From positions 33,414-97,413 of the forward strand of contig JAGOBM010000002.1 of NCBI GenBank assembly GCA_017983435.1: 64,000 nucleotides of DNA. The letters are read 5' to 3'. This document shows positions 1,493-52,942 of this stretch, piece by piece. The DNA is from Candidatus Moraniibacteriota bacterium (GTDB lineage: Bacteria > Patescibacteriota > Minisyncoccia > Moranbacterales > UBA1568). The notes under the pieces were generated by a model. The model did not search any database. It had not been told where the DNA came from and saw nothing but the letters and a program-made list of their open reading frames with translations. Positions within the stretch are counted from its first letter, which is position 1. Each line of letters opens with the position of its first letter. The translations under genes were made by a program, and so were the position numbers.

Positions 1493-3193
1493 ATGAAGCG
1501 TTTTTCAGGAGATATTTCTATCGTGCTCGGGGGTGCGGCGGGACAGGGGATACAGACGGTCGAAGCGATGCTCGTATCGGTGCTGAAGGCCGAAGGATAT
1601 CGGATTTTTGCCTGCAAAGAGTACATGTCACGCATCCGCGGGGGATCCAATTCGACCGAGATCCGCATCGGCCGCGGCAATCCGCTCGCGTATGTCGAGC
1701 GTATCGATTTTCTGCTCGCGCTCGATCAGGGTGTCATCCCGCATTTGAGAGAGCGTATCGGCAAGCAGACGATCATACTCGGGGAGAAGGACAAGGTGCA
1801 GCACGAGGGCGCGCATATCATCGATCTGCCGTTTACCAAGCTTTCAGCTGAACTCGGCAATCCGATTTTTGCTTCGACCATCGCGGTCGGCGCGGTACTC
1901 GGCATGCTCGGCGCGGAGCGGAAGCCATTTGAAGACTATCTGCGGGCGCATTTTGCTCGCAAAGGGGAAGACGTGGTGAAGAAGAACCTCGAGGCGGCTG
2001 CCAAAGGTATGGACTTCGGGAGCCATATTGCCTTTATGGAAGGGTTTGAAGTGAACCTCCAGAAAGATGAGACAGTCCGCGAGGAGCTCTTGCTCGATGG
2101 CAATACCGCTCTCGGTCTCGGAGCGATCGCGGCGGGGTGTGATTTTGCCTCATCGTATCCGATGTCTCCCGGGACCGGTGTACTGACCTATCTGGCGAGC
2201 CAGGCGCAGAAGTTCGGTATCGTCATCGATCAGGCGGAAGATGAGATCGCGGCGATCAATATTGCGATCGGTGCCTGGTATGCCGGTGCACGAGCACTCG
2301 TGACGACATCCGGCGGCGGATTCGCCCTCATGTGCGAAGGAGTGAGTCTCGCGGGCATGATTGAGACGCCCGTCGTGGTCCATATCGGACAGCGTCCAGG
2401 CCCGGCGACGGGACTCCCGACGCGTACCGAGCAGGCCGATCTCAATCTCGTGCTCTATGCCGGGCATGGCGAGTTTCCGCGGGCGATATTCGCTCCGGGT
2501 ACTCCTGCACAGGCGTTTCATGCGATGCAGCAGGCTTTCGAGGCGGCGGATGCGTATCAGATCCCGGTCTTCGTCTTGTCGGATCAGTATATGCTCGATT
2601 CCATATCGACTCTTCCGAAGGAAGATCTGGAATGTCTACCGGTAATCAAACACGTCGTCGAGACCGATGCTGCCTATCGCCGCTATGTCGTGACGGAAGA
2701 CGGAATATCGCCCCGTGGTATCCCGGGTTTCGGCCAGGGGATGGTCGGAGTCGATAGCGATGAACACGATGAGGAGGCCCATATCACCGAAAGCGCTCTG
2801 GTCCGCATCGCGATGCATGAGAAGCGTCTCCGGAAGCTCGATCTGATGAAGGAGTCCGCGCTCATGCCGGAGGAGATCGAAGCGGTAAAGGGTGCCAAGA
2901 CGCTTATCGTCACCTGGGGATCGAATCGGGGTATCCTCGAAGAGGCACTCGGCACAATCAAAGATGAGTCCGTGGCCGGCCTCCATTTCTGCCAGGTCTA
3001 CCCGCTCAATCCGAAAGCGAAGAAACTGTTTTCGAAGAAGAGAATCATTGTGATGGAGAACAACGCAGCGGGACAATTCGCCGATCTCTTGGAGCGCGAT
3101 CTCGATATCGAGGTCAGCGAGCGGATCCTGAAATATGACGGATCGCCGTATTCGGTGGAGGAGACGGTGGAGAGGCTGAAACAGCTATTGTAA
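1493..3193 (+). CDS. korA: 2-oxoacid:ferredoxin oxidoreductase, fused gamma/alpha subunit (KorA/OorA-like)
   Basis: An N-terminal gamma domain (GGAAGQGIQT...RGGSNSTEIRIG) is followed by an alpha domain (YPMSPGTGVL...TTSGGGFALM). The start was chosen at the internal ATG at 1493 because the upstream extension of the ORF is not conserved. Confidence 0.85.
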   Translation: MKRFSGDISIVLGGAAGQGIQTVEAMLVSVLKAEGYRIFACKEYMSRIRGGSNSTEIRIGRGNPLAYVERIDFLLALDQGVIPHLRERIGKQTIILGEKDKVQHEGAHIIDLPFTKLSAELGNPIFASTIAVGAVLGMLGAERKPFEDYLRAHFARKGEDVVKKNLEAAAKGMDFGSHIAFMEGFEVNLQKDETVREELLLDGNTALGLGAIAAGCDFASSYPMSPGTGVLTYLASQAQKFGIVIDQAEDEIAAINIAIGAWYAGARALVTTSGGGFALMCEGVSLAGMIETPVVVHIGQRPGPATGLPTRTEQADLNLVLYAGHGEFPRAIFAPGTPAQAFHAMQQAFEAADAYQIPVFVLSDQYMLDSISTLPKEDLECLPVIKHVVETDAAYRRYVVTEDGISPRGIPGFGQGMVGVDSDEHDEEAHITESALVRIAMHEKRLRKLDLMKESALMPEEIEAVKGAKTLIVTWGSNRGILEEALGTIKDESVAGLHFCQVYPLNPKAKKLFSKKRIIVMENNAAGQFADLLERDLDIEVSERILKYDGSPYSVEETVERLKQLL

Positions 3194-3210: not shown

Positions 3211-3630
3211 ACAAGCTCCAAATAAATCCAAATGATTCAAATTCAAAAAACAAAAATATACGATTTGGAGGAACGGACATTAGAGTATGGGAAGAGAATT
3301 ATTCATTTAAGCAGGAGTCTTCCAAAGGATGTAGCTAACGATACTATTAGCGGGCAGCTCATGCGTTCAGGGACTTCATTAGGCGCTAATTATAGAGAAG
3401 CTAATGAAACAGTAACCAAAAAAGATTTTTCTTTTCGGATGCGTATTTGTCGTAAAGAAGCAAAGGAAACGGTGTATTGGCTGCAGTTGGTGGTAGAAGC
3501 AAATCCAGATCTGGACAAGAGGGTTTCTCCGTTACTTCAAGAAACGAGGGAGTTGGTAAAAATATTCGCAGCCATTATTGAAAAATCTAAATAATTTGAT
3601 ATTTGAATTTGTAATTTATTTGGAGCTTGT
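3211..3630. mobile_element. AT-rich cassette bounded by a perfect 17-bp inverted repeat (ACAAGCTCCAAATAAAT at 3211-3227; ATTTATTTGGAGCTTGT at 3614-3630) and carrying a four-helix-bundle gene
   Basis: The inverted repeat was read directly from the sequence, and the arms extend further with imperfect matches. GC falls sharply relative to the flanking korA and korB. Confidence 0.6.
3232..3594 (+). CDS. Four-helix-bundle protein (TIGR02436, the family of 23S rRNA intervening-sequence proteins)
   Basis: YDLEERTLEYGKRIIHLSRSLPKD...SGQLMRSGTSLGANYREANE...KDFSFRMRICRKEAKETVYWLQLV matches the family signature. Confidence 0.8.
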   Translation: MIQIQKTKIYDLEERTLEYGKRIIHLSRSLPKDVANDTISGQLMRSGTSLGANYREANETVTKKDFSFRMRICRKEAKETVYWLQLVVEANPDLDKRVSPLLQETRELVKIFAAIIEKSK

Positions 3631-3656
3631 AATTTTTGATTTTAGATTTAAAACGT

Positions 3657-4520
3657 ATGATCGACAAAAAGCTCTATGATATGCCGCATGGTACGGATAT
3701 CGCTTGGTGCCAGGCCTGCGGGAACTTCCCTATCCTGACTATCGTGAAGAGCGCGCTTGCGGAGCTCGATATCCTGCCTGGATCCGTCGTCATGACTTCC
3801 GGTATCGGACAGGCTGCCAAGACCCCGCACTATCTGCACCTCAATTATTTCAACGGTCTGCATGGCCGGGCGCTCGGACCGGCGATGGCGATCAAGGCGG
3901 CGAGCCCGCAGCTGACGGTTATCGCCGAGAGCGGAGACGGCGATACCTACGGTGAGGGAGGCAATCATTTCATGCACACTATCCGCCGCAATCCGGATAT
4001 CACGAATATCGTTCACAACAACATGATCTACGGTTTGACCAAGGGGCAGGCATCGCCGACCTCAGAGAAGGGCCTGGTGACGCCGCTTCAGCCGGGAGGG
4101 GTGATTCTGGAGCCGTTCAATCCGATTCCGGTCGCGCTCTCACTCGGGGCGACCTTCGTCGCGCGTGCCTATGCGGGCAATATCCCGCAGGCGGTCGCGA
4201 TCGTGAAGGAAGCGATACAGCATAAGGGGTATGCACTCGTCGATATTTTCCAGCCCTGCGTCGTCTTCAACAAGCAGAATACCTATCAGTGGTTCATGGA
4301 ACACACCTATCTGCTCGGAGAAGAGCATGATGCGACCGATCGCGCCCTGGCCTGGAAGCTTGGTATGGATCAGGATCGGCTCGCACTCGGCGTCATCTAT
4401 CGGGAGACGGGACGACCGACCTATGAGGCACAGGTCCGTACGGGATCGGATATGCTGTTTGGACGCGAGCGCGATACCGCGCAGGTCCGGGCCCTGGTCG
4501 ATTCGTATACGAAGAAGTGA
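3657..4520 (+). CDS. korB: 2-oxoacid:ferredoxin oxidoreductase beta subunit (TPP-binding)
   Basis: CQACGNFPIL...SGIGQAAKTPHYL...GDGDTYGEGGNHF is a TPP/PFOR beta-domain pattern. The ORF begins with TTG at 3636, and the first ATG is at 3657. Confidence 0.85.
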   Translation: MIDKKLYDMPHGTDIAWCQACGNFPILTIVKSALAELDILPGSVVMTSGIGQAAKTPHYLHLNYFNGLHGRALGPAMAIKAASPQLTVIAESGDGDTYGEGGNHFMHTIRRNPDITNIVHNNMIYGLTKGQASPTSEKGLVTPLQPGGVILEPFNPIPVALSLGATFVARAYAGNIPQAVAIVKEAIQHKGYALVDIFQPCVVFNKQNTYQWFMEHTYLLGEEHDATDRALAWKLGMDQDRLALGVIYRETGRPTYEAQVRTGSDMLFGRERDTAQVRALVDSYTKK

Positions 4521-14704: not shown

Positions 14705-15469
14705 ATGGAACATTTTTGGCAACGCATCAATCCCGTATTGACCCTGGTATTCCGAGGACACGATATCTGTGCGGACACGCTCGGCCGATGGTATGGGTCT
14801 GTCAAGTGGGGTATCCTGATCGCCGCTCATTTCACGCTGCTTATCTTGTTCGTACCGGAGCTCGCCGTCTTCCGGAAAGGAGCGGGCGAGCTCGCAGCCA
14901 ATCTCCTGATCGCGCTCCTGTTCCTGAGTCCGATCGCGACGATATTCCGGATGCGTCTCCTTTCGCTCGGCATGGGATTGCGGCGGGAAATCGGCATACT
15001 CATGGGCTACCTGGCCGTCGTGCATGGAGTCGGATATATGACCGATCCTCAATTCTTCACGTTGTTCATCGCGGAGCATCTCGGAGCGGGAATCGTATCG
15101 ATGGATACGAGTATCCTGGTCGGGATCATCGGTCTAATCCTGACGCTGCCGCTCCTCGTCACCTCCAACGCTTTCTCGATGCGGCGGCTCGGAGGGAAAA
15201 ATTGGAAAAGACTGCACCGTCTCGTCTATCCGGCCTTCCTTTTTATCGTCTTGCATCGGTTTTTCCAGGTCGGAGGATCCTGGCAGGAGGTCGGACCGTT
15301 CATTGAAGCGGGTGTGCTGATCGGTATTTACACACTTCTCAAATATCTTGCTTGGAAGCCGACGGCTTGGCCGTGGTTGCGCTGGATCGTCGGTCAGATA
15401 GGCGCGCGCTATGCTACGTATCGGCAGGCGAGAGGAGCTCATGCGATCAGTCATTCAGATCTAAAATAA
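14705..15469 (+). CDS. Ferric-reductase-like transmembrane protein (MsrQ/YedZ-like heme-binding membrane subunit)
   Basis: It has six predicted TM helices with His residues in TM helices (VVHGVGY; LHRLVYPAFLFIVLHRF). Confidence 0.55.
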   Translation: MEHFWQRINPVLTLVFRGHDICADTLGRWYGSVKWGILIAAHFTLLILFVPELAVFRKGAGELAANLLIALLFLSPIATIFRMRLLSLGMGLRREIGILMGYLAVVHGVGYMTDPQFFTLFIAEHLGAGIVSMDTSILVGIIGLILTLPLLVTSNAFSMRRLGGKNWKRLHRLVYPAFLFIVLHRFFQVGGSWQEVGPFIEAGVLIGIYTLLKYLAWKPTAWPWLRWIVGQIGARYATYRQARGAHAISHSDLK

Positions 15470-15474
15470 AGGGT

Positions 15475-16698
15475 ATGCATATTTTTTGGAAAGGCAGTCT
15501 CTTGTTTGCTCTGCTGCTGGCCGGTATCGGCGTGACCATCCCATCAGCTGAAGCGGCTGATCGGGTACTCATTGAGGTCTTCGAACGTCAGGATTGCGCG
15601 CACTGTCAGGCTGAACGGGTATTTCTCGATGAGCTCATGAAGAGCCAGCAGGACGTCGAGGTGAAGAGACTGGATATCGCGGATGCTGCTTCCAAAGCAC
15701 TCTTCACGCAGTTTACTGATGCTCAGGGACTTTCCAAAGCGACGCCGCTCACGGTGATCGGCACGGAGGCGATACAGGGGTTCGATACGGAGGAAACGAC
15801 TGGCGCACTCATCATTCAGGCGGTGGAGGCCGGACAGGGAGAAGAGCGGCTCGGTATCGCTGTGCTCCTCGAAAGGAATATCAAGACCGGTGTCCGAGAG
15901 GAAGGCGCGATCTGCGATGCGGAGACCGGTGTCTGCAAGAAACCGGCACCGGAATACCCGGTCCGTGTGCCGTTTATCGGGACTGTGAATGCCTATGCTT
16001 TCTCGCTCCCGGTACTCGCGAGTATCCTCGGTTTCATCGATGGATTCAATCCCTGCGCTATGTGGGTGCTCGTCACCTTCCTCCTCGTCTTGATGCAGAT
16101 AGAGTCGCGTGAGCGGATGCTCTCGGTGGCCGGACTCTTCATCGTCGCCGAGGCGGTCATGTACTATCTCATCCTCAATATCTGGTTTACGACGTGGGAT
16201 TTCGTCGGTCTCGATCAGATCGTGACGCCGATCATCGGTCTCTTGGCGATCGGCGGCGGCGGGTTCTTCCTCTATGAGTGGAAGACAGCCGACGGCGCCT
16301 GCAAAATCATCGATGCGGAGAAACGGGTCTCCATCATCGCGTCCGTCAAGAAGCTCGCTCATGAGCCGCTGACGTGGGTATCAGCCGCCGGTATCGTCGC
16401 GCTCGCGTTCTCAGTCAATGTCATCGAATTCGCCTGCTCCATCGGTATCCCGCAGGCCTTCACCAAGATCCTCGAGCTGAACCAGCTGCACTTTTTGCAG
16501 GAGCAGGGGTTGATGGCGCTCTACATCTTCTTTTACATGCTGGATGATTTCCTTGTCTTCGGCCTCGCGCTCTGGGGCGCGCAGCATCTCCATCTGACAC
16601 AGAAGTATTCCCGCTGGTCGACGTTCGTCGGCGGCATACTCATGCTTATCCTCGGGCTCATCCTCATCTTCTCGCCGGAAGCGTTGCGTTTCGTATAA
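15475..16698 (+). CDS. Signal peptide, then a thioredoxin/glutaredoxin-like domain (CAHC), then a CcdA/DsbD-family thiol:disulfide transmembrane electron-transfer domain
   Basis: A signal peptide MHIFWKGSLLFALLLAGIGVTIPSAEA is followed by ERQDCAHCQ. The TM domain has FNPCAMW in TM1 and FACSIGIP in a later TM, matching CcdA Cys motifs. Confidence 0.6.
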   Translation: MHIFWKGSLLFALLLAGIGVTIPSAEAADRVLIEVFERQDCAHCQAERVFLDELMKSQQDVEVKRLDIADAASKALFTQFTDAQGLSKATPLTVIGTEAIQGFDTEETTGALIIQAVEAGQGEERLGIAVLLERNIKTGVREEGAICDAETGVCKKPAPEYPVRVPFIGTVNAYAFSLPVLASILGFIDGFNPCAMWVLVTFLLVLMQIESRERMLSVAGLFIVAEAVMYYLILNIWFTTWDFVGLDQIVTPIIGLLAIGGGGFFLYEWKTADGACKIIDAEKRVSIIASVKKLAHEPLTWVSAAGIVALAFSVNVIEFACSIGIPQAFTKILELNQLHFLQEQGLMALYIFFYMLDDFLVFGLALWGAQHLHLTQKYSRWSTFVGGILMLILGLILIFSPEALRFV

Positions 16699-18286: not shown

Positions 18287-18676
18287 TAGTGGAGTTGATG
18301 GGAATTGCACCCATGTCCAGTCACGTTTTTCCAAAATATTCTACAAGCGTAGTCTGCTTTAGGTCCCTTCCTCTCTATGAAACAGACGAAAGAGAGCGGA
18401 AGACTGGTCTTCTGCAAAAGGCGATCGGAGGAGAAAGACGAGAAGAAAATCTCCGGACCTTCCCGAAGTATGACACCGGCGGTTCTCTATCGGGAGTCGA
18501 GGAGCCGATGGTCCGCGCGAATTAGGCGCGGGCGAAAGCGAAAGACGGAGCGAACGCCGAAGCGAACGTGGCCTTGGCCTTTGGGATGAAGTTTGCACTT
18601 ATCGGTTGATGGAAGTTTTTACGATCGTACCATCATGATCGGCTTGCCTATTTTGAAAGTACGCCCTGTCGAGTCT
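18287..18676 (-). ncRNA. ssrA: tmRNA (transfer-messenger RNA, SsrA)
   Basis: The minus-strand 5-prime end GGGGUUGUUUAGACUCGACAGGG and 3-prime end GGACAUGGGUGCAAUUCCCAUCAACUCCA(CUA) closely parallel E. coli GGGGCUGAUUCUGGAUUCGACGGG...GGACGCGGGUUCAACUCCCGCCAGCUCCACCA. The acceptor stem GGGGUUG/CAACUCC keeps the G3:U wobble. A resume-codon context UAAGU-GCA-AAC and an Ala-rich tag frame ending in UAA lie on plus 18522-18596. The gene is directly downstream of smpB. Confidence 0.8.
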
Positions 18677-18772
18677 AAACAACCCCATACCATCAAGGAT
18701 GATGGAAATTCCAAATTCCAAAGCCCAAATTCCCAGCGGAATTGTAGAGTTTGGATCTTAGAATCTGAAGAA

Positions 18773-19222
18773 CTACCGGTGATCCCTCATCGCTCGCTCG
18801 ATACGCCGCTTCGCTTCCCGTTCACCGATATCGGAACGCTTGTCATACTCCTTTTTTCCCTTTGCTAGAGCGAATTCGAGCTTCACAAGTTGTTTCTGAG
18901 TATACAATCGAATAGGGACCAATGTCAAGCCTTGGACGCGGGATTTTCCAATCAGGGAGCGGATTTCCGAGCGATGGAGGAGGAGCTTGCGCGAACGGGT
19001 ATCCTCATGCTTCGTGTCTTTGTGAGCGTGAGCGTAGCGCGGAATCAGGGCATTGGTCAGGAAGAGCTCATTGCCACGGGCCGTCACAAAGGCTCCTTTG
19101 AGGCTGACGTGGCCGGTTTTGACTGACTTCACCTCGCTGCCGGACAGGACGATGCCCGCCACATACCGATCGAGGAGGGCGTAATCATAGGAAGCTCTGC
19201 GATTGAAAGCGAGATCCTTCAT
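18773..19222 (-). CDS. smpB: SsrA-binding protein SmpB
   Basis: NRRASYDYALLDRYVAGIVLSGSEVKS...GLTLVPIRLY match the SmpB consensus. Confidence 0.9.
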   Translation of the reverse strand: MKDLAFNRRASYDYALLDRYVAGIVLSGSEVKSVKTGHVSLKGAFVTARGNELFLTNALIPRYAHAHKDTKHEDTRSRKLLLHRSEIRSLIGKSRVQGLTLVPIRLYTQKQLVKLEFALAKGKKEYDKRSDIGEREAKRRIERAMRDHR

Positions 19223-21682: not shown

Positions 21683-23359
21683 TTGGAAGAGACTTCCCTA
21701 TTCGAAGTTTCACTGCCGGGTATGAAAACAACTCTAGCGCAAGCGATACAGGGAGCGATCGAGGGATTGATCCGGACGGGTCAGCTGCCTCTATTCGATC
21801 TGCCTTGCATCCAGGTGGAGCGTCCGAAGGATGAACAGTTCGGCGAATATACGTCGAATATCGCTTTGATCGCAGCCAAAATAGTCGGCAAGAATCCGAG
21901 AGAATTGGCGGAGCTGATCAAAGAACAATTAACAATTAACAATCAACAAGAAACATTCTTCGAAAAAATCGAAGTCGCTGGTCCGGGGCATCTCAATCTC
22001 TATCTGGCGCAGTCGGTACTCGGCGGTGTCGTGGAAACTATCGCAGCGCGACAGGATCAGTACGGGGCATCAGATCAGGGAGCAGGCCAGTCCGTGAACA
22101 ACGAATTCGTCTCGGCCAATCCGACCGGCCCGCTGCATCTCGGCAATGGCCGCGGGGGATTCTTTGGCGATACGCTCTCGCACATCCTGCGCAAGGCGGG
22201 ATACGCCGTAACGAATGAATACTATGTGAACGATGCCGGCGAGCAAGTGCTGAAGCTCGGGCATAGCGTCCTCAAGGACGAGGAGGCGGTATATGGAGGA
22301 GAATATATTGAAACGCTCCATGAGCGTTTCAAACAACAAACAACAAACAACAAACAACAAGATGGGGAAGGTGTAGTGAGGGAAACAGGCGAGTGGGCGG
22401 CGGAATATATTCTCACACATTTCATCCAGCCGACGCTCAAGGATCAGATGCGGATTACGTTCGATGTCTTCACTTCGGAAAAGCAAGAAATAATCGAGCG
22501 TGGGTATGTCGAGAAAGCCCTGGAGATTTTCAAGGAGAAGCAGCTTTCGTTCGAGACGGACGGCGCACTCTGGCTCAAGACGACCGCTTTCGGCGATGAC
22601 AAAGATCGAGTGCTCGTGAAGGGCGATGGGACGAAGACATACTTCGCGTCCGATTGCGGCTATATCCTCTCCAAGATGGAGCGCGGCTTTACACGGCTTA
22701 TCCTCACGCTCGGAGCGGATCATCACGGCTATCGGGCCCGGATCGAAGCAGCAGCACAGGCGCTCGGATTTGTCGGCCGTTTCGATTTTGTCTTCGTCCA
22801 GCTGGTCCGCCTCATGAAAGACGGCCAGGAAGTGCGGATGAGCAAGCGGGCGGGCAATGTCGTCTCGATCGACGAGCTGATCGAGCGGGTCGGACCGGAT
22901 GTCGCACGCTTCTTCTTTCTCGTGTACAGCCCCGATACGCATATGAACTTTGATCTCGGACTGGCAGAAGAGCGGTCACAGAAGAACCCGGTCTACTATG
23001 TGCAGTACGCGCATGCTCGGCTGGCCAGCGTGCTAGCCAAAGCGGCGGAGGCCGGACTCGATCCGGATCGCGGCGATGTCACTCTGCTCCAGGACCCGAA
23101 GGAGCGCCTGCTCCTCGCTGAGCTCCTCTCATTCCCGGATTTGATCTTGGATACGGCCGAGGATTATGCCGTCCATCGGCTGCCTCAGTATGCTATCCGT
23201 CTGGCTGACCGGCTGCACTCTTTCTATGATGCCTGCCGGGTCATCGATACCGAACAGCCAGCGATGTCTGAGGCTCGCCTGAGGCTCGTGAAAAGTGCTA
23301 AAATAGTCTTGAGTGAGACACTTCGTCTCATAGGTGTTACTGCTCCGGAAAAGATGTAG
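21683..23359 (+). CDS. argS: Arginyl-tRNA synthetase
   Basis: SANPTGPLHLGNGRGG is the HIGH-region variant, and MSKRAGNVV the KMSK variant. It contains two in-frame simple-sequence stretches (INNQQ; QQTTNNKQQ). Confidence 0.9.
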   Translation: MEETSLFEVSLPGMKTTLAQAIQGAIEGLIRTGQLPLFDLPCIQVERPKDEQFGEYTSNIALIAAKIVGKNPRELAELIKEQLTINNQQETFFEKIEVAGPGHLNLYLAQSVLGGVVETIAARQDQYGASDQGAGQSVNNEFVSANPTGPLHLGNGRGGFFGDTLSHILRKAGYAVTNEYYVNDAGEQVLKLGHSVLKDEEAVYGGEYIETLHERFKQQTTNNKQQDGEGVVRETGEWAAEYILTHFIQPTLKDQMRITFDVFTSEKQEIIERGYVEKALEIFKEKQLSFETDGALWLKTTAFGDDKDRVLVKGDGTKTYFASDCGYILSKMERGFTRLILTLGADHHGYRARIEAAAQALGFVGRFDFVFVQLVRLMKDGQEVRMSKRAGNVVSIDELIERVGPDVARFFFLVYSPDTHMNFDLGLAEERSQKNPVYYVQYAHARLASVLAKAAEAGLDPDRGDVTLLQDPKERLLLAELLSFPDLILDTAEDYAVHRLPQYAIRLADRLHSFYDACRVIDTEQPAMSEARLRLVKSAKIVLSETLRLIGVTAPEKM

Positions 23360-23595: not shown

Positions 23596-23751
23596 ATGAT
23601 CAGGAGAATTCCGAAGAAGTATCGTCATAAATACGCGAAGCCGGCGTCGTTCGATACCGAGATCGTCACCTTTGCTCTCAAGGTGGTAGGTCCGGTCGCG
23701 TTGTTCTTCGTGGCGGCTATCGGACTCGATGTCTATTCGCTCATACAATAA
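23596..23751 (+). CDS. Possible small membrane protein (51 aa)
   Basis: MIRRIPKKYRHKYAKPASFDTEIVTFALKVVGPVALFFVAAIGLDVYSLIQ has a basic N-terminus and one TM helix. Its stop overlaps the start of the next gene. It is below the ORF-track size cut-off. Confidence 0.25.
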   Translation: MIRRIPKKYRHKYAKPASFDTEIVTFALKVVGPVALFFVAAIGLDVYSLIQ

Positions 23752-23752
23752 T

Positions 23753-24328
23753 ATGTCCGACACTTCTCTCGTGCTCTATCTCGTGCGTCACGGCGAAGCG
23801 GAGCACAATGTGCTCGGTGTCGGATCGTCGCTGCCGGAGATCACGGAGCGGCACCTGACAGAGCGGGGCAAGGAGCAGATCCGGGCAGCTGCCGAGCTCT
23901 TAGCGGGACAGTCGGTCGACGCTATCATCGCCTCACCGCTCGTCCGGACCCAGGAGACGGCCGCGATCATCTCTGAGAAGACGGGCGTACCGGTACAGAC
24001 CGATGATCGGCTGCACGAGACCGGACTCGGCGTGTTCAATGAGCAGTCGATCAGACGATTCTTCGGGAAATATCCGGATCCGACCATGCGTATCAGTATC
24101 CGGGAGAATGATGGTGTCGAGAGTTTCGATACGATGCGCGAGCGATTGGGGAGTTTCCTCGCGGATGTATGGAAGCACTATGCCGGCAAGACGGTCGTCG
24201 TTGTGTCGCATGGCGATCCATTGGAACAGTTGCACGGGCTGATTATCGGTGAGGGTGCGGCTGCGGCCGCTATGGGCTGGTATCCTCAAAAGGGGAGTTG
24301 CACGAGAATAATCTGGAAACCTGAATAA
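23753..24328 (+). CDS. Histidine phosphatase family protein (phosphoglycerate-mutase-like)
   Basis: LYLVRHGEAEHN is the RHG motif, and IIASPLVRTQETA...VVVSHGD follow the family pattern. Confidence 0.8.
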   Translation: MSDTSLVLYLVRHGEAEHNVLGVGSSLPEITERHLTERGKEQIRAAAELLAGQSVDAIIASPLVRTQETAAIISEKTGVPVQTDDRLHETGLGVFNEQSIRRFFGKYPDPTMRISIRENDGVESFDTMRERLGSFLADVWKHYAGKTVVVVSHGDPLEQLHGLIIGEGAAAAAMGWYPQKGSCTRIIWKPE

Positions 24329-24350
24329 AATATTTTTTTTGAGACGAGTT

Positions 24351-25040
24351 ATGGACAAGAAACAGCATGAAGATCTGGTCGCCTCGCTGGCAGACCCCAA
24401 GGTTCTTTTGGAATACGACCGTGTTTTCGATGATTTTCGTGTGAGCTGGCTTCCGAAAATCTTGGGACAGCTCTTGGTGAGTACTGGAAACTTGGTATTC
24501 GGAAAAGAACCTTCATATGGGAAGTTCAAGGCGGTCGAAGTGATTGCCCGGATCCCGTACCAATCGTGGGAGGTGGCGAGCTATATGCTCCTGACGATGT
24601 TTTACTCGAATGAGCAGCGAGCTATAGAATTGTCGCAGACCTCGCGCTTCGGGCGGAGCGCGCAGGACAATGAGACGATGCACGTGGTGGTACTGAGTCA
24701 GTTGGCCCAGAAATACGGAGAAGACAGTCTGATCAGGCATACGTTTATTCCGCTCGCGTTCTCTTTCTTCTACTTCGCAGCGTCTTTTGTGCTCTATCTC
24801 TTCAGTCCGCGCTCGGCGTTGGAACTCAACTATTTGTTTGAGAGCCATGCGTTTGAGCAGTACAGCCGCTTCTTAGAGTTGCGTGGTGAAGAATTGAAGC
24901 GGAAGCCCGTCATGCTTGATTTTCTGGAATTCTATGGCCGGCACGTGAAGAGTGAGTACGAATTGTTTCAATCGATCCGTGCAGATGAGATCATCCATCG
25001 CAATGTTTCGGCCCGTCGGGCTGAAGAGTATGGTGTATAG
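24351..25040 (+). CDS. Alternative-oxidase-like diiron carboxylate protein (AOX/PTOX family)
   Basis: Four diiron motifs occur in AOX order: EVIARIPYQSW (Glu 1), NETMHVVV (resembles NERMHL, ExxH), ESHAFEQY (resembles EEEAIHSY), RADEIIHRN (resembles RADEAHHR). Confidence 0.6.
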   Translation: MDKKQHEDLVASLADPKVLLEYDRVFDDFRVSWLPKILGQLLVSTGNLVFGKEPSYGKFKAVEVIARIPYQSWEVASYMLLTMFYSNEQRAIELSQTSRFGRSAQDNETMHVVVLSQLAQKYGEDSLIRHTFIPLAFSFFYFAASFVLYLFSPRSALELNYLFESHAFEQYSRFLELRGEELKRKPVMLDFLEFYGRHVKSEYELFQSIRADEIIHRNVSARRAEEYGV

Positions 25041-25086
25041 TAGGGGTATTCTCTCTAGGGTGGGGCGTAATCTATAGTAAGCCGAT

Positions 25087-25491
25087 ATGAAATCGTTTGA
25101 ATGGAAGGATGAATACAATATCGGGGTAGAGGTCATTGATGCTCAACATAAGGCGTTCGTGGGTATTATGAACGAGTTGTATACGGCGATTACCGAAAAG
25201 AAAGAAGCAGCCGTTTTTCAAGAAATTCTCAAACGGATCACGGAATATATGGATGATCATTTTCAGACCGAAGAACATTATTTTGATGAGTTTCGTTATG
25301 AGGGCGCCGTAGGGCATCAGGCGGCACACAGGATACTGCGGACGCAGCTGGTTGAAATCAGTGAACACCGGAAGAACAATCCTACAGGGAATCCTTTTGA
25401 ACTCTTGGATTTTTTGGAGAATTGGCTCGTGGAGCACGTTGCCATGGACAAGCAATACGGAGCCTGTTTCAAGAGTCATGGTTTACAGTAG
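25087..25491 (+). CDS. Hemerythrin-like (bacteriohemerythrin) diiron O2-binding protein
   Basis: WKDEYNIGVEVIDAQHKAFVGIMNEL...HFQTEEHYF...HRILRTQLVEI...WLVEHV show the H/E ligand spacing of hemerythrin. Confidence 0.8.
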   Translation: MKSFEWKDEYNIGVEVIDAQHKAFVGIMNELYTAITEKKEAAVFQEILKRITEYMDDHFQTEEHYFDEFRYEGAVGHQAAHRILRTQLVEISEHRKNNPTGNPFELLDFLENWLVEHVAMDKQYGACFKSHGLQ

Positions 25492-25539: not shown

Positions 25540-25860
25540 TTTGAACAGCGATGAAGGGGCCTCCCGAGGCGGGCGGATATCACCCCAGAGCTGCGAGAAG
25601 AAGCGTTTGTTGAAACCAAAGAAGGTGTCCGCCTTCGCCACGGCTTCGGCGTGACGCAGTAGACCTCGCCGGGCAAGCCCGTAATAGCCGAAGAAGAGGG
25701 TTTAGAGCGTTAGGTGATAGAGGCTAATAGAGGTTTTCTATAAGCTAAGTCTCTAATTGCTATAAGCTAAAGCAAGGTGGTACCACGCCTGTCCGCCCTT
25801 TGGCGGATTGCAGACGTCCTTAGCACGGTTTTCGTGTTAAGGTTTTTTTGTTTTTAAAGC
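25540..25860 (+). promoter_or_regulatory. T-box leader (tRNA-sensing riboswitch) upstream of ileS
   Basis: The conserved T-box sequence AAAGCAAGGUGGUACCACG at 25770-25787 matches the consensus AANNNGGGUGGNACCGCG. It is followed by a GC hairpin CCGCC-CUUU-GGCGG and a CACGGUUUUCGUG hairpin before a U-rich run. An AUC (Ile) triplet sits in a candidate specifier context at 25567-25569. Confidence 0.5.
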
Positions 25861-25876
25861 CATATATAATATAAGT

Positions 25877-28800
25877 ATGTTCAAAAAAGTCGATCCGAAA
25901 GTCAGCTTTCCGCAGCTTGAAGAAGAGACGCTCAAATACTGGGAGGAGAACAAGATCTTCGAGCAATCGGTAGCGAACCGCGAGGGTAAGCCGAAGTATA
26001 GTTTCAATGATGGGCCGCCGTTTGCGACCGGGTTGCCGCACTATGGGCATATCGTGGCGAGTGTTATCAAAGACGCCATACCGCGGTATTGGGCGATGCG
26101 CGGGCATCAGGTAGAGCGCAAGTGGGGCTGGGACTGTCATGGTCTGCCAATCGAGAATATCGCGGAGAAGGAGCTCGGTATCAAACATAAGAAAGATATC
26201 GAGGCGATGGGCGTCGCGAAGTTCAATGAGTTCTGTCGCTCCAAGGTGCTTGAGTACGCGGCCGAGTGGGAAAAGGTCATACCGCGTATCGGACGCTGGG
26301 CTGACATGAAGAACGCCTACCGTACCATGGATAAGGAATATATGGAGAGTGTGTGGTGGGTATTCAAGGAGCTCTGGGATAAAGGACTTATTTACGAGAG
26401 CTACCGTTCGATGCATGTCTGTCCGCGCTGCGAGACGACGCTCAGTCAACAGGAGGTGAGCGAGGGATATGTCGACGTGAAGGACTTATCAGTGGTCGCG
26501 AAGTTCGAGCTGGTTGGTTCTGATGTCATTCCGGCCTCCGAGCCGGAATCTAGGGACTGGATCCCGGGTCAAGCCCGGGATGACAAGAAAACATATGTCT
26601 TGGCGTGGACGACGACGCCGTGGACGCTGCCAGGCAATGTGGCTTTGGCTGTTGGGAAGGATATTGTTTACACAAAATCAAAAGTAGCTGAAATTAATGG
26701 CAATAGTACTTTTAAGTTAGGAGAGACTTATATATTTGCAAAAAATCGAGCAAAAATTGCAGCTCATGAAATATTTGGTGGAAAGTTAGGGGAGACTCAG
26801 ATTACGACTTTTGATAAAAATGATGGAGTGTTGTGTTCTGCAGTTATTGCGAATGATGATGGCTCTGAAACTCAAATTGTATTCGATTCTGTTGATATCT
26901 TTGGTGAGAATTTGCTAGGACAATCCTACAAGCCGCTGTTCGATTACTACGCCAAGGATACGACGCTTCCGAACCACGAGAATGGCTGGAAGATCTACGC
27001 GGCGGATTTTGTGACGACCGAGGATGGCACGGGTGTGGTGCATATCGCGCCGGCATTCGGCGAGGACGACATGGAACTCGGCAAGAAAGAGAATCTGCCG
27101 TTCGTGCAGCATGTGCATCTTGATGGCACGATGAAAGCCGAAGTGACGGATTTTGCGGGCCAGCCGGTGAAACCGAAGGAGGCGCCGCAGTCGATGGATG
27201 TGGAAATCATCAAATACCTCGCGCACAAAGGACTGCTCTTCTCAAAGGAGAAATACGAGCACAGCTACCCGCACTGCTGGCGCTGCGATACGCCGCTCCT
27301 CAATTACGCGACGTCGTCGTGGTTTGTTTCTGTGACGAAGATAAAAGAAAAGATGCTTGAGCTTGCCAAAGATATCCATTGGTCGCCGGAGCATATCAAG
27401 GAAGGGCGTTTCGGAAAGTGGCTCGAGGGCGCGCGCGACTGGTCTATCAGCCGGCAGCGCTATTGGGCCTCTGTGATGCCGATCTGGAAGTGCGAGTGCG
27501 GCGAGATACAGGTTTTCGGATCGATTGCTGATTTGGAGACAGCGAGCGGACAGAAAGTGGATGACCTGCATAAGCATGTCGTCGATGAGATCTCGGTACC
27601 ATGTACGAAGTGCGGCGGGACGATGAAGCGTGTCCCGGATGTGCTCGATACTTGGTTCGATAGCGGTTCGATGCCGTATGCGCAGGAGCACTATCCATTT
27701 GCGAACGAGGAACATTTCAACAAGAGCTTCCCGGCGGATTTCATCGCGGAGGGAGTCGATCAGACGCGCGCGTGGTTCTACTATCAGCACGTCATCGGCA
27801 CGGCTATCAAGGACAGCGTTGCATTCAAAAATGTCATCGTGAACGGTATCGTGCAGGGTGAAGATGGCAAGAAGATGTCGAAGAAACTCAAGAATTATCC
27901 GGATCCGATGGAAATCGTGAACAAGCACGGGGCGGACGCGCTGCGCCTGTATCTCTTGTCCTCACCGATTGTCGCAGCCGAAAATCTCAATTTCTCCGAG
28001 CGCGACCTGACCGAGACCTCGCGCAACGTGTTTCGCATGCTGTGGAATTCATACTCGTTCTTCATGACATACGCGTCGATCGATGCATGGGAGCCGAAGC
28101 AGGATGTCGAGCCGTCGGCCAATCTGCTCGACCGCTGGATTACTTCCGAGCTCCAGCTGCTCATCAAAAATCTCGATCAGTCGATGGAAGTGTACGAGTT
28201 GAACAAAGCAGCGCGCCTCTTCATGCCGTTTATCGACAATCTCTCGAACTGGTATATTCGCCGGTCGCGGGATCGCTTCTGGAAAAATGAAAATGATAAC
28301 GATAAGGAAGCTGCCTATCAGACGCTCTATGATGTGCTCGTAACGCTCTCGGAGCTCATGGCACCGTTTACACCATTCCTGTCGGAGGAAATCTATCGCA
28401 ATCTGACCGGAGAAGCATCGGTGCATCTGGCGGATTGGCCTACTAATAATGGCTCAATTGATGAATTGCTGAATGACTTGATGAAGGATGTTCGGGAAAT
28501 TGTGAGCATCGGTCTACAGAAACGAGCCGAGGCGAAGATTAAAGTAAGGCAGCCATTGAATCAAATCCGTCTCAAGTCGGATACGTACAAGAAACTTCTT
28601 GACACAGTTTCTGATCCTAAAGACAAGATGTTTCTCGAGAATATTATCTTGAGCGAGCTTAATGTGAAGGGAATTTACTTTGATGGTTCTGCAGAGGAAA
28701 ATATTGTTCTTGATATCGAGCTCACTGATGATCTCAAGCTCGAAGGCGAGATGAACGAGATCAACCGGGCTATCCAGGATGGGCGCAAGAAGGCGGGCTT

Positions 28801-28987
28801 CAATGTGGAGGACCGTATCGTGCTCGGGTATATGGGCAAAGAGAACGTTTTCCAGAAATTCGGCGATGAGATCGCCAAGAAAGTCCTCGCGACTGAGGTG
28901 AAGAATGAAGATCTCGCTGAGGCTGAGTATCGCGAAACCATCACCATTGAAGGCGAGGAATTTACATTCTCTCTCAAGCGATCATAG
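25877..28987 (+). CDS. ileS: Isoleucyl-tRNA synthetase
   Basis: It is 1036 aa with PPFATGLPHYGHI (HIGH), KMSKKLKN (KMSKS), a CP1 editing region, and a C-terminal WRCDTP...CTKCGG zinc region. Confidence 0.95.
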   Translation: MFKKVDPKVSFPQLEEETLKYWEENKIFEQSVANREGKPKYSFNDGPPFATGLPHYGHIVASVIKDAIPRYWAMRGHQVERKWGWDCHGLPIENIAEKELGIKHKKDIEAMGVAKFNEFCRSKVLEYAAEWEKVIPRIGRWADMKNAYRTMDKEYMESVWWVFKELWDKGLIYESYRSMHVCPRCETTLSQQEVSEGYVDVKDLSVVAKFELVGSDVIPASEPESRDWIPGQARDDKKTYVLAWTTTPWTLPGNVALAVGKDIVYTKSKVAEINGNSTFKLGETYIFAKNRAKIAAHEIFGGKLGETQITTFDKNDGVLCSAVIANDDGSETQIVFDSVDIFGENLLGQSYKPLFDYYAKDTTLPNHENGWKIYAADFVTTEDGTGVVHIAPAFGEDDMELGKKENLPFVQHVHLDGTMKAEVTDFAGQPVKPKEAPQSMDVEIIKYLAHKGLLFSKEKYEHSYPHCWRCDTPLLNYATSSWFVSVTKIKEKMLELAKDIHWSPEHIKEGRFGKWLEGARDWSISRQRYWASVMPIWKCECGEIQVFGSIADLETASGQKVDDLHKHVVDEISVPCTKCGGTMKRVPDVLDTWFDSGSMPYAQEHYPFANEEHFNKSFPADFIAEGVDQTRAWFYYQHVIGTAIKDSVAFKNVIVNGIVQGEDGKKMSKKLKNYPDPMEIVNKHGADALRLYLLSSPIVAAENLNFSERDLTETSRNVFRMLWNSYSFFMTYASIDAWEPKQDVEPSANLLDRWITSELQLLIKNLDQSMEVYELNKAARLFMPFIDNLSNWYIRRSRDRFWKNENDNDKEAAYQTLYDVLVTLSELMAPFTPFLSEEIYRNLTGEASVHLADWPTNNGSIDELLNDLMKDVREIVSIGLQKRAEAKIKVRQPLNQIRLKSDTYKKLLDTVSDPKDKMFLENIILSELNVKGIYFDGSAEENIVLDIELTDDLKLEGEMNEINRAIQDGRKKAGFNVEDRIVLGYMGKENVFQKFGDEIAKKVLATEVKNEDLAEAEYRETITIEGEEFTFSLKRS

Positions 28988-51478: not shown

Positions 51479-51481
<3 letters not shown>
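50951..51481 (+). CDS. ORF6N-domain (KilA-N-related) DNA-binding protein
   Basis: LRGEKVMLDADLAELYDV...NKAVKRNIDRFPSDFMFQLNKAEF...GKRKLPYAFTEQGVAMLSSVLKSQRAVAVNIQIVRTFVELRK is the characteristic ORF6N signature. Its stop codon lies inside a GAATA-family repeat. Confidence 0.75.

Positions 51482-52942
<1,461 letters not shown>

What the first reader, a model, noticed from the sequence alone, without database searches (positions are those of the whole stretch)
24351..25491. AOX-like diiron oxidase gene adjacent to a hemerythrin gene, a possible O2-handling pair
The 230-aa protein carries the four-helix diiron motifs in alternative-oxidase order: E, NExMH, ExxxxExxY, RADExxHR. The next gene encodes a classic hemerythrin, which is an O2-binding diiron protein. 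Nothing else in the window suggests a quinone-based respiratory chain. An AOX/PTOX-family protein in such a genome would need a non-canonical electron donor, or it functions in O2 scavenging together with hemerythrin.
Basis: partly seen in the sequence, partly recalled or inferred. Interest (0 to 1): 0.6.

Follow-up and report, generated by a model that had tools for sequence, protein, structure and literature searches.

The report
PTOX-like oxygen reductase in CPR bacteria
An ultra-small fermentative bacterium of the Candidate Phyla Radiation carries a strongly conserved gene for a membrane di-iron oxidase related to the plant plastid terminal oxidase; it belongs to a large, overlooked family that probably lets these bacteria reduce oxygen, and the hemerythrin gene beside it is a recent add-on in this lineage, not a fixed partner.

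Summary
Both genes are real. ORF 24351-25040 (229 aa) passes the Pfam AOX threshold. It keeps all four Glu and two His iron ligands plus the catalytic Tyr, and its model matches only trypanosome alternative oxidase in the PDB. ORF 25087-25491 is a bacteriohemerythrin. The window comes from a Candidatus Moranbacteria (CPR/Patescibacteria) genome.

The oxidase is not a mitochondrial-type AOX. It belongs to a monophyletic CPR clade that is closer to plastid terminal oxidase (PTOX). Relatives were found in 161 species-level genomes, and the surveys of oxygen reductases in CPR that I read did not report it.

The AOX-hemerythrin pairing is not conserved. It occurs only in relatives of at least 85% identity. 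None of 80 other loci has a hemerythrin. Sister genomes carry the hemerythrin alone at the same position. The hemerythrin gene has atypical GC3, which suggests recent insertion into a variable slot upstream of IleRS.

In other CPR lineages the oxidase sits next to an FAD-linked D-2-hydroxyacid dehydrogenase, a candidate electron donor.

Best reading: a non-energy-conserving, membrane-bound O2 reductase fed by scavenged quinone. It would serve O2 removal and redox balance, with hemerythrin as an independent accessory.

The parts
24351..25040 (+). AOX/PTOX-superfamily di-iron oxidase gene of the CPR clade (229 aa; an alternative TTG start lies at 24339)
   Evidence: Pfam PF01786 scores 42 bits against a gathering score of 22.7. 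There are 925 homologues, and sources name some of them 'alternative oxidase' or 'ubiquinol oxidase'. The AF2 model has pLDDT 87.5, and its top 14 PDB matches are all trypanosome alternative oxidase.
24522..24560 (+). Helix-1 motif K58-F-K-A-V-E63-V-I-A-R-I-P-Y70, carrying the first iron-ligand Glu; it has the PTOX-type 'ARxPY' signature
   Evidence: K58, E63, R67, P69 and Y70 are invariant. E63 aligns with TAO E123 and K58 with TAO R118. PTOX reads LETIARVPY, whereas AOX reads LETVAxVPG.
24663..24683 (+). Q105-D-N-E108-T-M-H111, the first ExxH iron-ligand motif
   Evidence: Invariant in 34 sequences. Aligns with TAO E162/H165.
24732..24812 (+). Hydrophobic helix (residues 128-154) ending in Y149-L-F-S-P-R; probable membrane-binding helix, equivalent to alpha4 of AOX
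   Evidence: The highest Kyte-Doolittle 19-residue mean (1.92) is at residues 132-151. The Y-x-x-S-P-[KR] motif is shared with plant PTOX, AOX1a and TAO, though not with every relative. AOX helices alpha1 and alpha4 insert into the membrane (PMC9540462).
24840..24863 (+). E164-S-H-A-F-E-Q-Y171: third-helix ligand Glu and the catalytic Tyr, with the PTOX-type 'ExHA' signature
   Evidence: E164, H166, A167 and Y171 are invariant. E164 aligns with TAO E213 and Y171 with TAO Y220. PTOX reads VESHAYETY and AOX reads LEEEAxxxY.
24978..25004 (+). R210-A-D-E213-I-I-H216-R-N218, the second ExxH iron-ligand motif
   Evidence: D212, E213, H216, R217 and N218 are invariant. Aligns with TAO E266/H269.
25087..25491 (+). 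Single-domain bacteriohemerythrin gene (134 aa), an insertion specific to this lineage
   Evidence: NCBIfam NF033749 scores 111.7 bits against a cut-off of 84. Ligands H21, H58, E62, H77, H81, H117 and D121 are invariant. GC3 is 0.50 against 0.63-0.69 in neighbours. No hemerythrin was found in 80 related loci.
23729..24328 (+). Histidine-phosphatase-superfamily gene, the conserved backbone gene upstream; probably co-transcribed with the oxidase
   Evidence: Pfam His_Phos_1 scores 126.5 bits. It lies upstream of the oxidase in 13 Moranbacteria-type loci, and upstream of the hemerythrin where the oxidase is absent. It ends 22 nt before the oxidase start.

Best explanation
The 229-aa protein is a functional, membrane-associated di-iron carboxylate oxidase of the AOX/PTOX superfamily. 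It belongs to a previously undiscussed clade that is widespread in Parcubacteria-type CPR bacteria.

Proposed mechanism, by homology. A four-helix bundle binds two Fe through E63, E108, H111, E164, E213 and H216. The hydrophobic helix at residues 128-154 docks the protein on the cytoplasmic face of the membrane. A membrane quinol is oxidised near K58, Q170 and Y171, and O2 is reduced to water without proton pumping. Because CPR bacteria make neither quinones nor lipids, the quinone would be taken from the host together with membrane lipid.

Proposed physiological role. The enzyme removes O2 to protect O2-labile enzymes encoded in the same genome neighbourhoods (2-oxoacid:acceptor oxidoreductase, Fe-S assembly, and NrdDG in relatives). 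It also re-oxidises reductant during fermentation. In Paceibacterota-type genomes the donor is probably the adjacent FAD-linked D-2-hydroxyacid (D-lactate or glycolate type) dehydrogenase. That would give a two-enzyme shunt from 2-hydroxyacid to O2.

The hemerythrin. It is a separately acquired O2-binding accessory, acting as a buffer, sensor or Fe-S protectant. It landed in the same variable slot upstream of IleRS. It is probably co-transcribed with the oxidase here, but the oxidase does not require it.

Shown: family membership, ligand conservation, fold, clade structure, gene neighbourhoods, and the independence of the two genes.
Inferred: iron binding, membrane docking, quinol as substrate, scavenged quinone, and the physiological role.
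For: Family membership and fold:
- Pfam AOX scores above the gathering threshold, and it is the only family hit.
- The six ligands and the Tyr are invariant across 34 homologues and map onto the TAO ligand positions. These are the defining AOX features listed in PMC9540462.
- The AF2 model has pLDDT 87.5 and pTM 0.86. The top 14 Foldseek PDB hits are all TAO (probability 0.99-1.0, TM 0.46-0.57), and COQ7 follows only at E about 1.
- A hydrophobic helix carries the Y-x-x-S-P-[KR] motif also found in plant PTOX, AOX1a and TAO.

Clade and distribution:
- The clade is monophyletic in 100 of 100 bootstraps.
- There are 925 homologues and 161 genome loci, nearly all titled as Patescibacteria lineages.
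- The oxidase GC3 (0.635) is native-like.

Candidate electron donors:
- An FAD_binding_4 + FAD-oxidase_C protein lies on the same strand in 24 of 80 loci, 18 of them with a gap of 200 nt or less. That is 17 of 37 informative non-Moran loci. It resembles GlcD, LctD, D-LDH and the N-terminal half of YdiJ. In L070 the gene order is reversed but the adjacency is kept.
- An NAD-dependent D-2-hydroxyacid dehydrogenase lies next to the oxidase in another subgroup.
- The Paludibacteraceae sister-group gene abuts an nqrA-F NADH:quinone reductase operon.

Quinone supply: other CPR genomes carry bo3 or bd quinol oxidases without quinone synthesis, and quinone uptake from hosts has been proposed (PMC4508563).

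O2-sensitive context: the window holds OAFO, SUF, NifU and Rrf2 genes. In relatives the slot holds NrdDG and a PAS-sigma fusion.

Independence of the hemerythrin. C. jejuni hemerythrins protect Por and Oor from O2 (PMC4257069).
Against: - There is no biochemical or expression evidence.
- No quinone source and no quinone reductase is visible in this 64-kb window, and the rest of the genome could not be read.
- The clade is remote from characterised enzymes: 22-24% identity to PTOX and 16% to AOX. Its HMM does not reach TAO in a PDB sequence search. Substrate specificity may therefore have changed.
- TM-scores to TAO are only about 0.5.
- The link to the FAD-dehydrogenase is absent from all 22 Moranbacteria-type loci, including this one. 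Within Paceibacterota it could partly reflect inherited synteny.
- The AOX-adjacent hemerythrins have a one-residue deletion in the H-x4-D ligand motif.
Confidence: 0.6

Rival explanations
1. The oxidase and the hemerythrin form a dedicated functional pair. The hemerythrin captures O2 and hands it to the oxidase, as bacteriohemerythrin is proposed to do for particulate methane monooxygenase (from my own knowledge). Alternatively it gates the oxidase as an O2 sensor.
For: - The genes are on the same strand, 46 nt apart, with no terminator between them.
- The adjacency is retained in an 85%-identical relative and on many metagenome contigs.
- Both are di-iron, O2-related proteins.
- The two AOX-adjacent hemerythrins share a derived H-x3-D motif that the AOX-free relatives lack. 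This could reflect co-adaptation.
Against: - 0 of 80 species-level loci with the oxidase has any hemerythrin within 10 kb.
- The hemerythrin occurs without the oxidase at the same position (L087, L088) or after NrdDG (L085, L086).
- The hemerythrin GC3 is atypical, which suggests later insertion.
- Only 7 word-sharing homologues of the hemerythrin were found, against 925 for the oxidase.
- The slot upstream of IleRS collects varied accessory genes.
Confidence: 0.12
2. The CPR clade has left quinol chemistry. In one version it accepts electrons directly from a flavoprotein partner, such as the adjacent FAD-linked 2-hydroxyacid dehydrogenase. That protein lacks the Fe-S/CCG half of YdiJ, so the two together would form a quinone-free two-component oxidase. 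In another version it acts as an oxygenase on a scavenged lipophilic substrate.
For: - CPR genomes lack quinone biosynthesis (PMC4508563).
- The clade is very divergent and has a conserved clade-specific N-terminal region of about 55 residues outside the Pfam AOX match.
- TAO T219 is replaced by a nearly invariant Gln and R118 by an invariant Lys.
- The partner dehydrogenase matches only positions 25-540 of the 1018-position YdiJ model.
- The INT-group relative P0174 is flanked by luciferase-like monooxygenase genes, not by respiratory genes.
Against: - The ligand set, the catalytic Tyr and the membrane-helix motif of quinol oxidases are all retained.
- From my own knowledge, quinol oxidase is the only activity described for PF01786 members.
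- The closest named non-CPR relative lies beside an NADH:quinone reductase operon.
- Other CPR genomes keep quinol oxidases despite lacking quinone synthesis.
Confidence: 0.2
3. The gene is a decayed relic, a mis-binned contaminant, or a chance Pfam match with no oxidase function.
For: - The Pfam score is modest (42 bits).
- There is no NCBIfam hit.
- Sequence searches of the PDB do not find AOX.
- One homologous contig is titled Flavobacteriales and one homologous protein is named Undibacterium.
Against: - 53 columns are invariant across 34 sequences.
- The gene is embedded between ArgRS/HisPhos and IleRS/RecO in conserved CPR synteny.
- Its GC3 is native-like.
- The fold match to TAO is specific.
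- The oddly titled records are a 1.9-kb contig and one MAG protein.
Confidence: 0.03

Closest known systems
Plastid (plastoquinol) terminal oxidase, PTOX/IMMUTANS, of plants, algae, cyanobacteria and cyanophages
   Same: - Same Pfam family.
- Same E / ExxH / E / ExxH ligands plus Tyr.
- Shared signatures E-T/V-I-A-R-V/I-P-Y, NExxH, E-x-H-A-x-x-x-Y and Y-x-x-S-P-R.
- The CPR HMM scores PTOX-type proteins at 45-70 bits, well above AOX.
- Non-electrogenic quinol:O2 chemistry is assumed.
   Different: - Only 22-24% identity.
- It lacks the PTOX insertion before the last helix.
- It forms its own clade together with uncharacterised 'INT' sequences (100% bootstrap), rather than falling among the plant PTOX sequences.
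- The host is non-photosynthetic and makes no plastoquinone. PTOX is currently said to occur only in photosynthetic organisms (PMC7618691).
Mitochondrial/proteobacterial alternative oxidase (for example Trypanosoma brucei TAO, PDB 3VV9; Arabidopsis AOX1a)
   Same: - Best and only convincing PDB fold match.
- Identical ligand and Tyr positions.
- Hydrophobic helix 4 with the Y-x-x-S-P-[KR] motif.
   Different: - 16% identity.
- The AOX signatures LETVAxVPG and LEEEA are not present.
- The family HMM gives 8 bits on TAO and 25 bits on AOX1a.
- AOX lies on its own branch in 100% of bootstraps.
- There is no respiratory chain to branch from.
Cytochrome bo3 and bd quinol oxidases found in some CPR genomes (Saccharimonadia, some Parcubacteria)
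   Same: They are quinol-dependent O2 reductases in genomes without quinone synthesis. They are interpreted as O2 scavengers that possibly use host quinone (PMC4508563 and PMC9530719).
   Different: They are unrelated haem enzymes that conserve energy. They are sporadic and attributed to lateral transfer. The di-iron family described here forms a single clade spread across Parcubacteria-type lineages, and it was not counted in the surveys I read.
Single-domain bacteriohemerythrins (for example the Campylobacter jejuni hemerythrins)
   Same: Same family and ligand set. C. jejuni hemerythrins protect Por and Oor Fe-S enzymes from O2 (PMC4257069). This window encodes a 2-oxoacid:acceptor oxidoreductase, and in a relative the hemerythrin follows NrdDG.
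   Different: The last ligand motif is H-x3-D instead of H-x4-D. A CPR host. No functional data.
COQ7 / other ferritin-like di-iron proteins
   Same: Four-helix-bundle di-iron fold.
   Different: There is no Pfam hit for the window protein at E<=1. COQ7 appears only at Foldseek E about 1, with TM 0.37.

Membership tests
AOX/PTOX membrane di-iron oxidase superfamily (Pfam PF01786) | Sequence match above the curated family threshold | tested here: met
   42 bits against a gathering score of 22.7, E 1.1e-10, covering profile positions 58-212 of 216. It is the only family at E<=1.
AOX/PTOX membrane di-iron oxidase superfamily (Pfam PF01786) | Four Glu and two His iron ligands (E, ExxH, E, ExxH) on a four-helix bundle | tested here: met
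   E63, E108, H111, E164, E213 and H216 are invariant in 34 sequences. They are aligned with TAO E123, E162, H165, E213, E266 and H269. The feature is as listed in PMC9540462. Iron binding itself was not measured.
AOX/PTOX membrane di-iron oxidase superfamily (Pfam PF01786) | Universally conserved catalytic tyrosine, 7 residues after the third-helix Glu | tested here: met
   Y171 is invariant and aligns with TAO Y220.
AOX/PTOX membrane di-iron oxidase superfamily (Pfam PF01786) | AOX fold | tested here: met
AOX/PTOX membrane di-iron oxidase superfamily (Pfam PF01786) | Monotopic membrane binding through hydrophobic helices alpha1 and alpha4 | tested here: inconclusive
   One strongly hydrophobic helix (residues 128-154, Kyte-Doolittle mean 1.92) is aligned with the alpha4 region. 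Localisation was not tested.
AOX/PTOX membrane di-iron oxidase superfamily (Pfam PF01786) | Quinol:O2 oxidoreductase activity | not testable with these tools
   Needs enzymology.
Mitochondrial-type alternative oxidase (AOX sensu stricto) | AOX signature motifs LET-VA-x-VPG, NERMHL, LEEEA, RADEAxH, and grouping with AOX in trees | tested here: not met
   The protein has EVIARIPY, NETMHV and ESHA in place of the first three motifs; only RADE..H matches. The family HMM gives 8 bits on TAO and 25 bits on AOX1a. The bipartition separating AOX from everything else has 100% support.
Plastid terminal oxidase (PTOX sensu stricto) | PTOX signature motifs and grouping with characterised PTOX | tested here: inconclusive
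   The motifs are PTOX-like (ARxPY, ExHA), and HMM scores are 45-70 bits. However, the clade groups with uncharacterised INT sequences, and the PTOX-type set as a whole is not resolved (24% bootstrap).
Plastid terminal oxidase (PTOX sensu stricto) | PTOX-specific insertion before the last ligand helix; occurrence in a plastoquinone-containing photosynthetic organism | tested here: not met
   The insertion is absent. The host is a non-photosynthetic CPR bacterium.
Bacteriohemerythrin (NCBIfam NF033749 / Pfam PF01814) | Family score above the cut-off | tested here: met
   111.7 bits against 84, and 55.2 bits against 25.3.
Bacteriohemerythrin (NCBIfam NF033749 / Pfam PF01814) | H, HxxxE, HxxxH, HxxxxD di-iron ligand motifs | tested here: inconclusive
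   H21, H58/E62, H77/H81 and H117/D121 are present and invariant. The last motif is H-x3-D here and in P0287, whereas four relatives have H-x4-D.
   Adjacency is seen only at 85% identity or above. None of 80 other loci has a hemerythrin. The hemerythrin occurs alone in L085-L088.

The most novel reading that the evidence does not exclude
Parcubacteria-type CPR bacteria are regarded as obligate fermenters without terminal oxidases. On this reading they widely possess a vertically inherited, PTOX-like di-iron O2 reductase that works without any self-made quinone. It would run either on quinone taken from the host membrane or by direct coupling to an adjacent FAD-dependent D-2-hydroxyacid dehydrogenase. 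That would give a minimal two-protein, non-energy-conserving 'respiration' that oxidises lactate or glycolate with O2. It would also mean that the AOX/PTOX superfamily has a large non-photosynthetic, non-proteobacterial branch.
Probability: 0.3. Interest if true: 0.8.

Novelty: new variant of a known kind. Interest (0 to 1): 0.6.

Why it matters
Current accounts say that prokaryotic AOX is confined to Alpha-, Beta- and Gammaproteobacteria and PTOX to Cyanobacteria (PMC7618691). They also say that Patescibacteria almost completely lack terminal oxidases (PMC8672522, PMC7507113).

This gene belongs to a conserved clade found in at least 161 species-level genomes. These include MAGs from the very studies that reported no oxidase: Parcubacteria C7867-004 and the Hainich H43, H51 and H52 bins.

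If the protein is active, three things follow:
- Many CPR bacteria can consume O2.
- The way these lipid and quinone auxotrophs would obtain an electron carrier becomes directly testable.
- The evolutionary history of the AOX/PTOX superfamily needs revising.

It also gives a concrete candidate pathway, 2-hydroxyacid dehydrogenase plus oxidase, to test in the few CPR co-cultures that exist.

Tried and rejected
- Coq7, MiaE and rubrerythrin as alternative families: no Pfam hit at E<=1, and COQ7 appears only at Foldseek E about 1. Rejected.
- PDB sequence search with the single protein and with the family profile: neither reached TAO. The hits were spurious, VC0714 and a kinesin-like protein. Only the fold search and the Pfam model link the family to AOX.
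- Hemerythrin as a conserved neighbour: tblastn at E<=1e-5 and at E<=10 against 80 loci gave nothing real. Rejected.
- Histidine phosphatase as a specific partner: it is backbone synteny and is present whether or not the oxidase is there. Rejected.
- Homologues of the FAD-dehydrogenase, the PAS-sigma fusion and three other slot genes in this window: none found.
- Extending beyond the window: the 50-200 kb contigs that carry these proteins were not returned. The genome-wide check for quinone pathways could not be done.
- Taxonomy of the nearest non-CPR 'INT' clade: cluster look-ups gave almost no names.
- Context of the divergent CPR representatives P0123 and P0126: contigs too short.
- Literature: six of the ten searches paired CPR terms with AOX, PTOX, ubiquinol or terminal oxidase terms. 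They found only one passing mention of a single CPR AOX hit, which was interpreted as a transfer from Proteobacteria (PMC9540462).
Full report
THE SEQUENCE

On the + strand, ORF 24351-25040 encodes 229 aa from an ATG. An in-frame TTG lies at 24339. ORF 25087-25491 encodes 134 aa. These two follow a histidine-phosphatase gene (23729-24328) and ArgRS (21683-23359). They precede IleRS (25877-28987) and RecO. The gaps are 22 nt and 46 nt, with no terminator-like hairpin between the genes. The three small genes are therefore probably co-transcribed. The 385 nt between the hemerythrin gene and IleRS hold a weak T-box-like leader and its terminator.

The first protein's only Pfam hit at E<=1 is AOX (PF01786), at 42 bits against a gathering score of 22.7. 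NCBIfam has no model for it. The second protein is a bacteriohemerythrin, scoring 111.7 bits on NF033749 against a cut-off of 84.

THE ORGANISM

The identical hemerythrin is recorded as 'hemerythrin family protein [Candidatus Moranbacteria bacterium]'. The oxidase's relatives are almost all from MAGs titled Moranbacteria/Moraniibacteriota, Paceibacterota, Parcubacteria, Minisyncoccota, Adler-, Wolfe-, Kaiser- or Nomurabacteria. Several TPA assemblies are titled 'Bdellovibrionales' or 'Saccharibacteria'. They share the window's ArgRS-HisPhos-oxidase-IleRS order at 57-69% aaRS identity, or the Paceibacterota gene order. I take them to be mislabelled CPR genomes.

The window holds:
- a two-subunit 2-oxoacid:acceptor oxidoreductase;
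- the SUF/NifU/Rrf2 Fe-S assembly genes;
- an F1Fo ATP synthase;
- aminoacyl-tRNA synthetases, a P-type ATPase and other housekeeping genes.

It holds no quinone biosynthesis genes, NADH dehydrogenase or haem oxidase. An MsrQ-like haem-b membrane protein at 14705-15469 is the only other possible quinol user.

WHAT THE OXIDASE IS

In an alignment of 34 homologues (59-85% identical to the window protein), 53 columns are invariant. These include E63, N107-E108-T-M-H111, E164, H166, Y171 and D212-E213..H216-R-N218. In a joint alignment these residues fall on TAO E123, E162, H165, E213, Y220, E266 and H269. That is the four-Glu, two-His di-iron site and the essential Tyr that define AOX (PMC9540462).

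The AlphaFold2 model is confident (pLDDT 87.5, pTM 0.86). Its first 14 PDB matches are all trypanosome alternative oxidase (probability 0.99-1.0, TM 0.46-0.57). COQ7 appears only at E about 1. The most hydrophobic segment (residues 128-154) ends in Y-L-F-S-P-R. This motif is shared with plant PTOX, AOX1a and TAO, in the region of the membrane-inserting helix alpha4.

Sequence searches of the PDB, with the single protein or with the family profile, do not reach TAO. The family is therefore remote from characterised AOX.

AOX OR PTOX

An exhaustive profile search of 1.84 billion representative proteins found 467 clusters at E<=1e-3. The CPR core accounts for about 16 clusters at E<=1e-30. Below the core lie an uncharacterised metagenomic group ('INT', KFxVLELVARVPYQA / QDNEQWH / FEDHAEHEY) and then proteins with the motifs LETIARVPYF / NELHH / VExHAxxTY / RDDExEH. 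The latter motifs are those of Arabidopsis 'ubiquinol oxidase 4, chloroplastic' and IMMUTANS.

The CPR family HMM scores as follows:

| Target | Bits |
|---|---|
| INT group | 100-125 |
| Paludibacteraceae 'alternative oxidase' (P0160) | 90 |
| PTOX-type metagenomic proteins | 58-70 |
| Plant PTOX | 45 |
| TAO core | 8 |

An NJ tree (209 columns, 100 bootstraps) gives:
- the CPR clade: 100%;
- CPR + INT: 100%;
- AOX apart from everything else: 100%.

Mean identity is 22-24% to PTOX-type proteins and 16% to AOX. The clade lacks the PTOX-specific insertion before the last helix. The protein is thus a member of the AOX/PTOX superfamily on the PTOX side. It is neither an AOX nor a PTOX in the strict sense.

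IS THE HEMERYTHRIN A PARTNER?

No conserved link was found.
- Among 80 species-representative loci that carry the oxidase (54-81% identity), none has a hemerythrin within 10 kb, even at tblastn E<=10.
- Adjacency appears only in an 85%-identical relative and in near-identical contigs.
- The hemerythrin has only seven word-sharing homologues.
- In L087 and L088 the hemerythrin sits in the same place (ArgRS-HisPhos-Hr-HIT-...-IleRS-RecO) with no oxidase. In L085 and L086 it follows NrdD-NrdG.
- Its GC3 is 0.50, against 0.63-0.69 for the oxidase and its neighbours.

The stretch between HisPhos and IleRS is a variable slot. In different relatives it holds the oxidase alone, or the oxidase with a PAS-sigma70 fusion, NrdDG and a multicopper-oxidase-like gene, or the hemerythrin with other genes. 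Many of these genes are O2-related. A loose 'oxygen-response' neighbourhood is therefore plausible, but an obligate oxidase-hemerythrin pair is not.

The two oxidase-adjacent hemerythrins share a one-residue deletion, H-x3-D in place of H-x4-D. I cannot explain this.

ELECTRON DONOR

In 24 of 80 loci, all of the Paceibacterota type, a gene of about 551 aa with FAD_binding_4 and FAD-oxidase_C domains lies on the same strand as the oxidase. In 18 of them the gap is 200 nt or less. This amounts to 17 of the 37 informative non-Moran loci. In L070 the order is reversed but the adjacency is kept.

The protein resembles glycolate oxidase GlcD, LctD, D-lactate dehydrogenase and the N-terminal half of D-2-hydroxyglutarate dehydrogenase YdiJ. 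It lacks YdiJ's C-terminal half. In the other loci one gene intervenes, and in seven loci a HAD-IIB hydrolase lies further upstream. Another subgroup has an NAD-dependent D-2-hydroxyacid dehydrogenase beside the oxidase. The Paludibacteraceae relative abuts an nqrA-F NADH:quinone reductase operon.

These associations fit a quinol oxidase fed by a 2-hydroxyacid:quinone dehydrogenase. They are guilt by association only, and they are absent from the Moranbacteria-type loci, including this window.

MECHANISM PROPOSED

A monotopic di-iron quinol:O2 oxidoreductase reduces O2 to water without pumping protons. It would use quinone acquired from the host, as has been suggested for the haem quinol oxidases seen in other CPR genomes that lack quinone synthesis (PMC4508563).

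Its likely use is O2 removal and redox balancing in a fermenter that has O2-labile 2-oxoacid oxidoreductase, Fe-S enzymes and, in relatives, NrdD. The hemerythrin is an independent O2-binding accessory. C. jejuni hemerythrins protect Por and Oor (PMC4257069).

Confidence is 0.6. The rivals are:
- a true oxidase-hemerythrin hand-off pair (0.12);
- a quinone-free or non-oxidase chemistry (0.2);
- a relic or an artefact (0.03).

NOVELTY

Databases already label these proteins 'alternative oxidase' or 'ubiquinol oxidase'. The searchable literature does not discuss them.
- CPR surveys of O2 reductases looked only at haem-copper and bd oxidases, or report a near absence of terminal oxidases (PMC7507113, PMC8672522, PMC13293708).
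- A 2025 analysis restricts prokaryotic AOX to Proteobacteria and PTOX to Cyanobacteria (PMC7618691).
- One paper notes a single CPR AOX hit as a presumed transfer (PMC9540462).
- Loci in my set come from the MAGs of two of those studies: Parcubacteria C7867-004 and the Hainich H43, H51 and H52 bins.

I rate this a new variant of a known kind, with interest 0.6. The gene family and its distribution are the real finding. The hemerythrin adjacency that drew attention to it is incidental.

LIMITS

- No enzymology or expression data.
- Only 64 kb of the genome could be read.
- The tree is NJ only.
The PTOX query was validated by a 98% match to the Arabidopsis record. The AOX1a fragment gave a 169-bit match to TAO.
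- The roles of TAO R118 and T219 in ligand binding are recalled from memory, not tested here.

Noticed in passing
window 25542-25850 (+): A weak T-box leader match (RF00230, 28 bits, E 1.8e-4, below the gathering score of 93). It contains a GGTGGTACCACG box and is followed by a terminator-like hairpin at 25818-25842 with a T-run, directly upstream of IleRS.
   Followed up: partly
window 50951-51481 (+): A gene with an ORF6N/Rha-type (phage antirepressor-like) domain lies inside the F1Fo ATP synthase operon, between atpG (49547-50437) and atpD (51548-52942). GC dips locally there.
   Followed up: no
window 3232-3594 (+): A gene of the '23S rRNA-intervening sequence protein' family sits between the alpha (1418-3193) and beta (3636-4520) subunit genes of the 2-oxoacid:acceptor oxidoreductase.
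   Followed up: no
window 14705-16698 (+): An MsrQ-like ferric-reductase transmembrane (haem b) protein (58 bits against the NCBIfam MsrQ cut-off of 130). It is followed by a 448-aa ORF with no family hit. It could use quinol or flavin as donor, in a genome without a visible quinone source.
   Followed up: partly
window 25087-25491; P0287: The two hemerythrins that lie next to the oxidase have H-x3-D (HVAMD / HILMD) in the last ligand motif. Their four oxidase-free relatives have the canonical H-x4-D (HIMGMD).
   Followed up: partly
L001, L007, L061, L085, L086 (slot upstream of IleRS): In relatives the same slot holds a PAS-domain/sigma-70 fusion protein and NrdD-NrdG. L001 and L061 also hold a multicopper-oxidase-like gene. 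This looks like a variable, oxygen-related accessory region.
   Followed up: partly
L023-L074 (Paceibacterota-type loci): A recurrent block: ABC ATPase, GtrA, DUF475/TerC, HAD-IIB hydrolase, FAD-linked 2-hydroxyacid dehydrogenase, oxidase, glycine-rich protein (not annotated), unannotated ~257-aa protein. The combination of phosphatase, GlcD-like enzyme and oxidase could hint at phosphoglycolate or glycolate disposal.
   Followed up: partly
L094 (P0174) and L096/L097 (P0160): The nearest non-CPR relatives have different contexts. One is flanked by two luciferase-like monooxygenase genes. The Paludibacteraceae one abuts an nqrA-F operon and lies near Fur and rubredoxin-like genes.
   Followed up: partly
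L001, L003, L004 and others; L021-L078 (record titles): Many TPA_asm MAGs titled 'uncultured Bdellovibrionales' or 'uncultured Candidatus Saccharibacteria' share gene order, and 57-69% aaRS identity, with Moranbacteria or Paceibacterota loci. Their taxonomic labels look wrong.
   Followed up: partly
window 18287-19222 (-): A tmRNA gene (110.8 bits) lies adjacent to smpB. ARAGORN did not report the tmRNA, although Rfam did.
   Followed up: no
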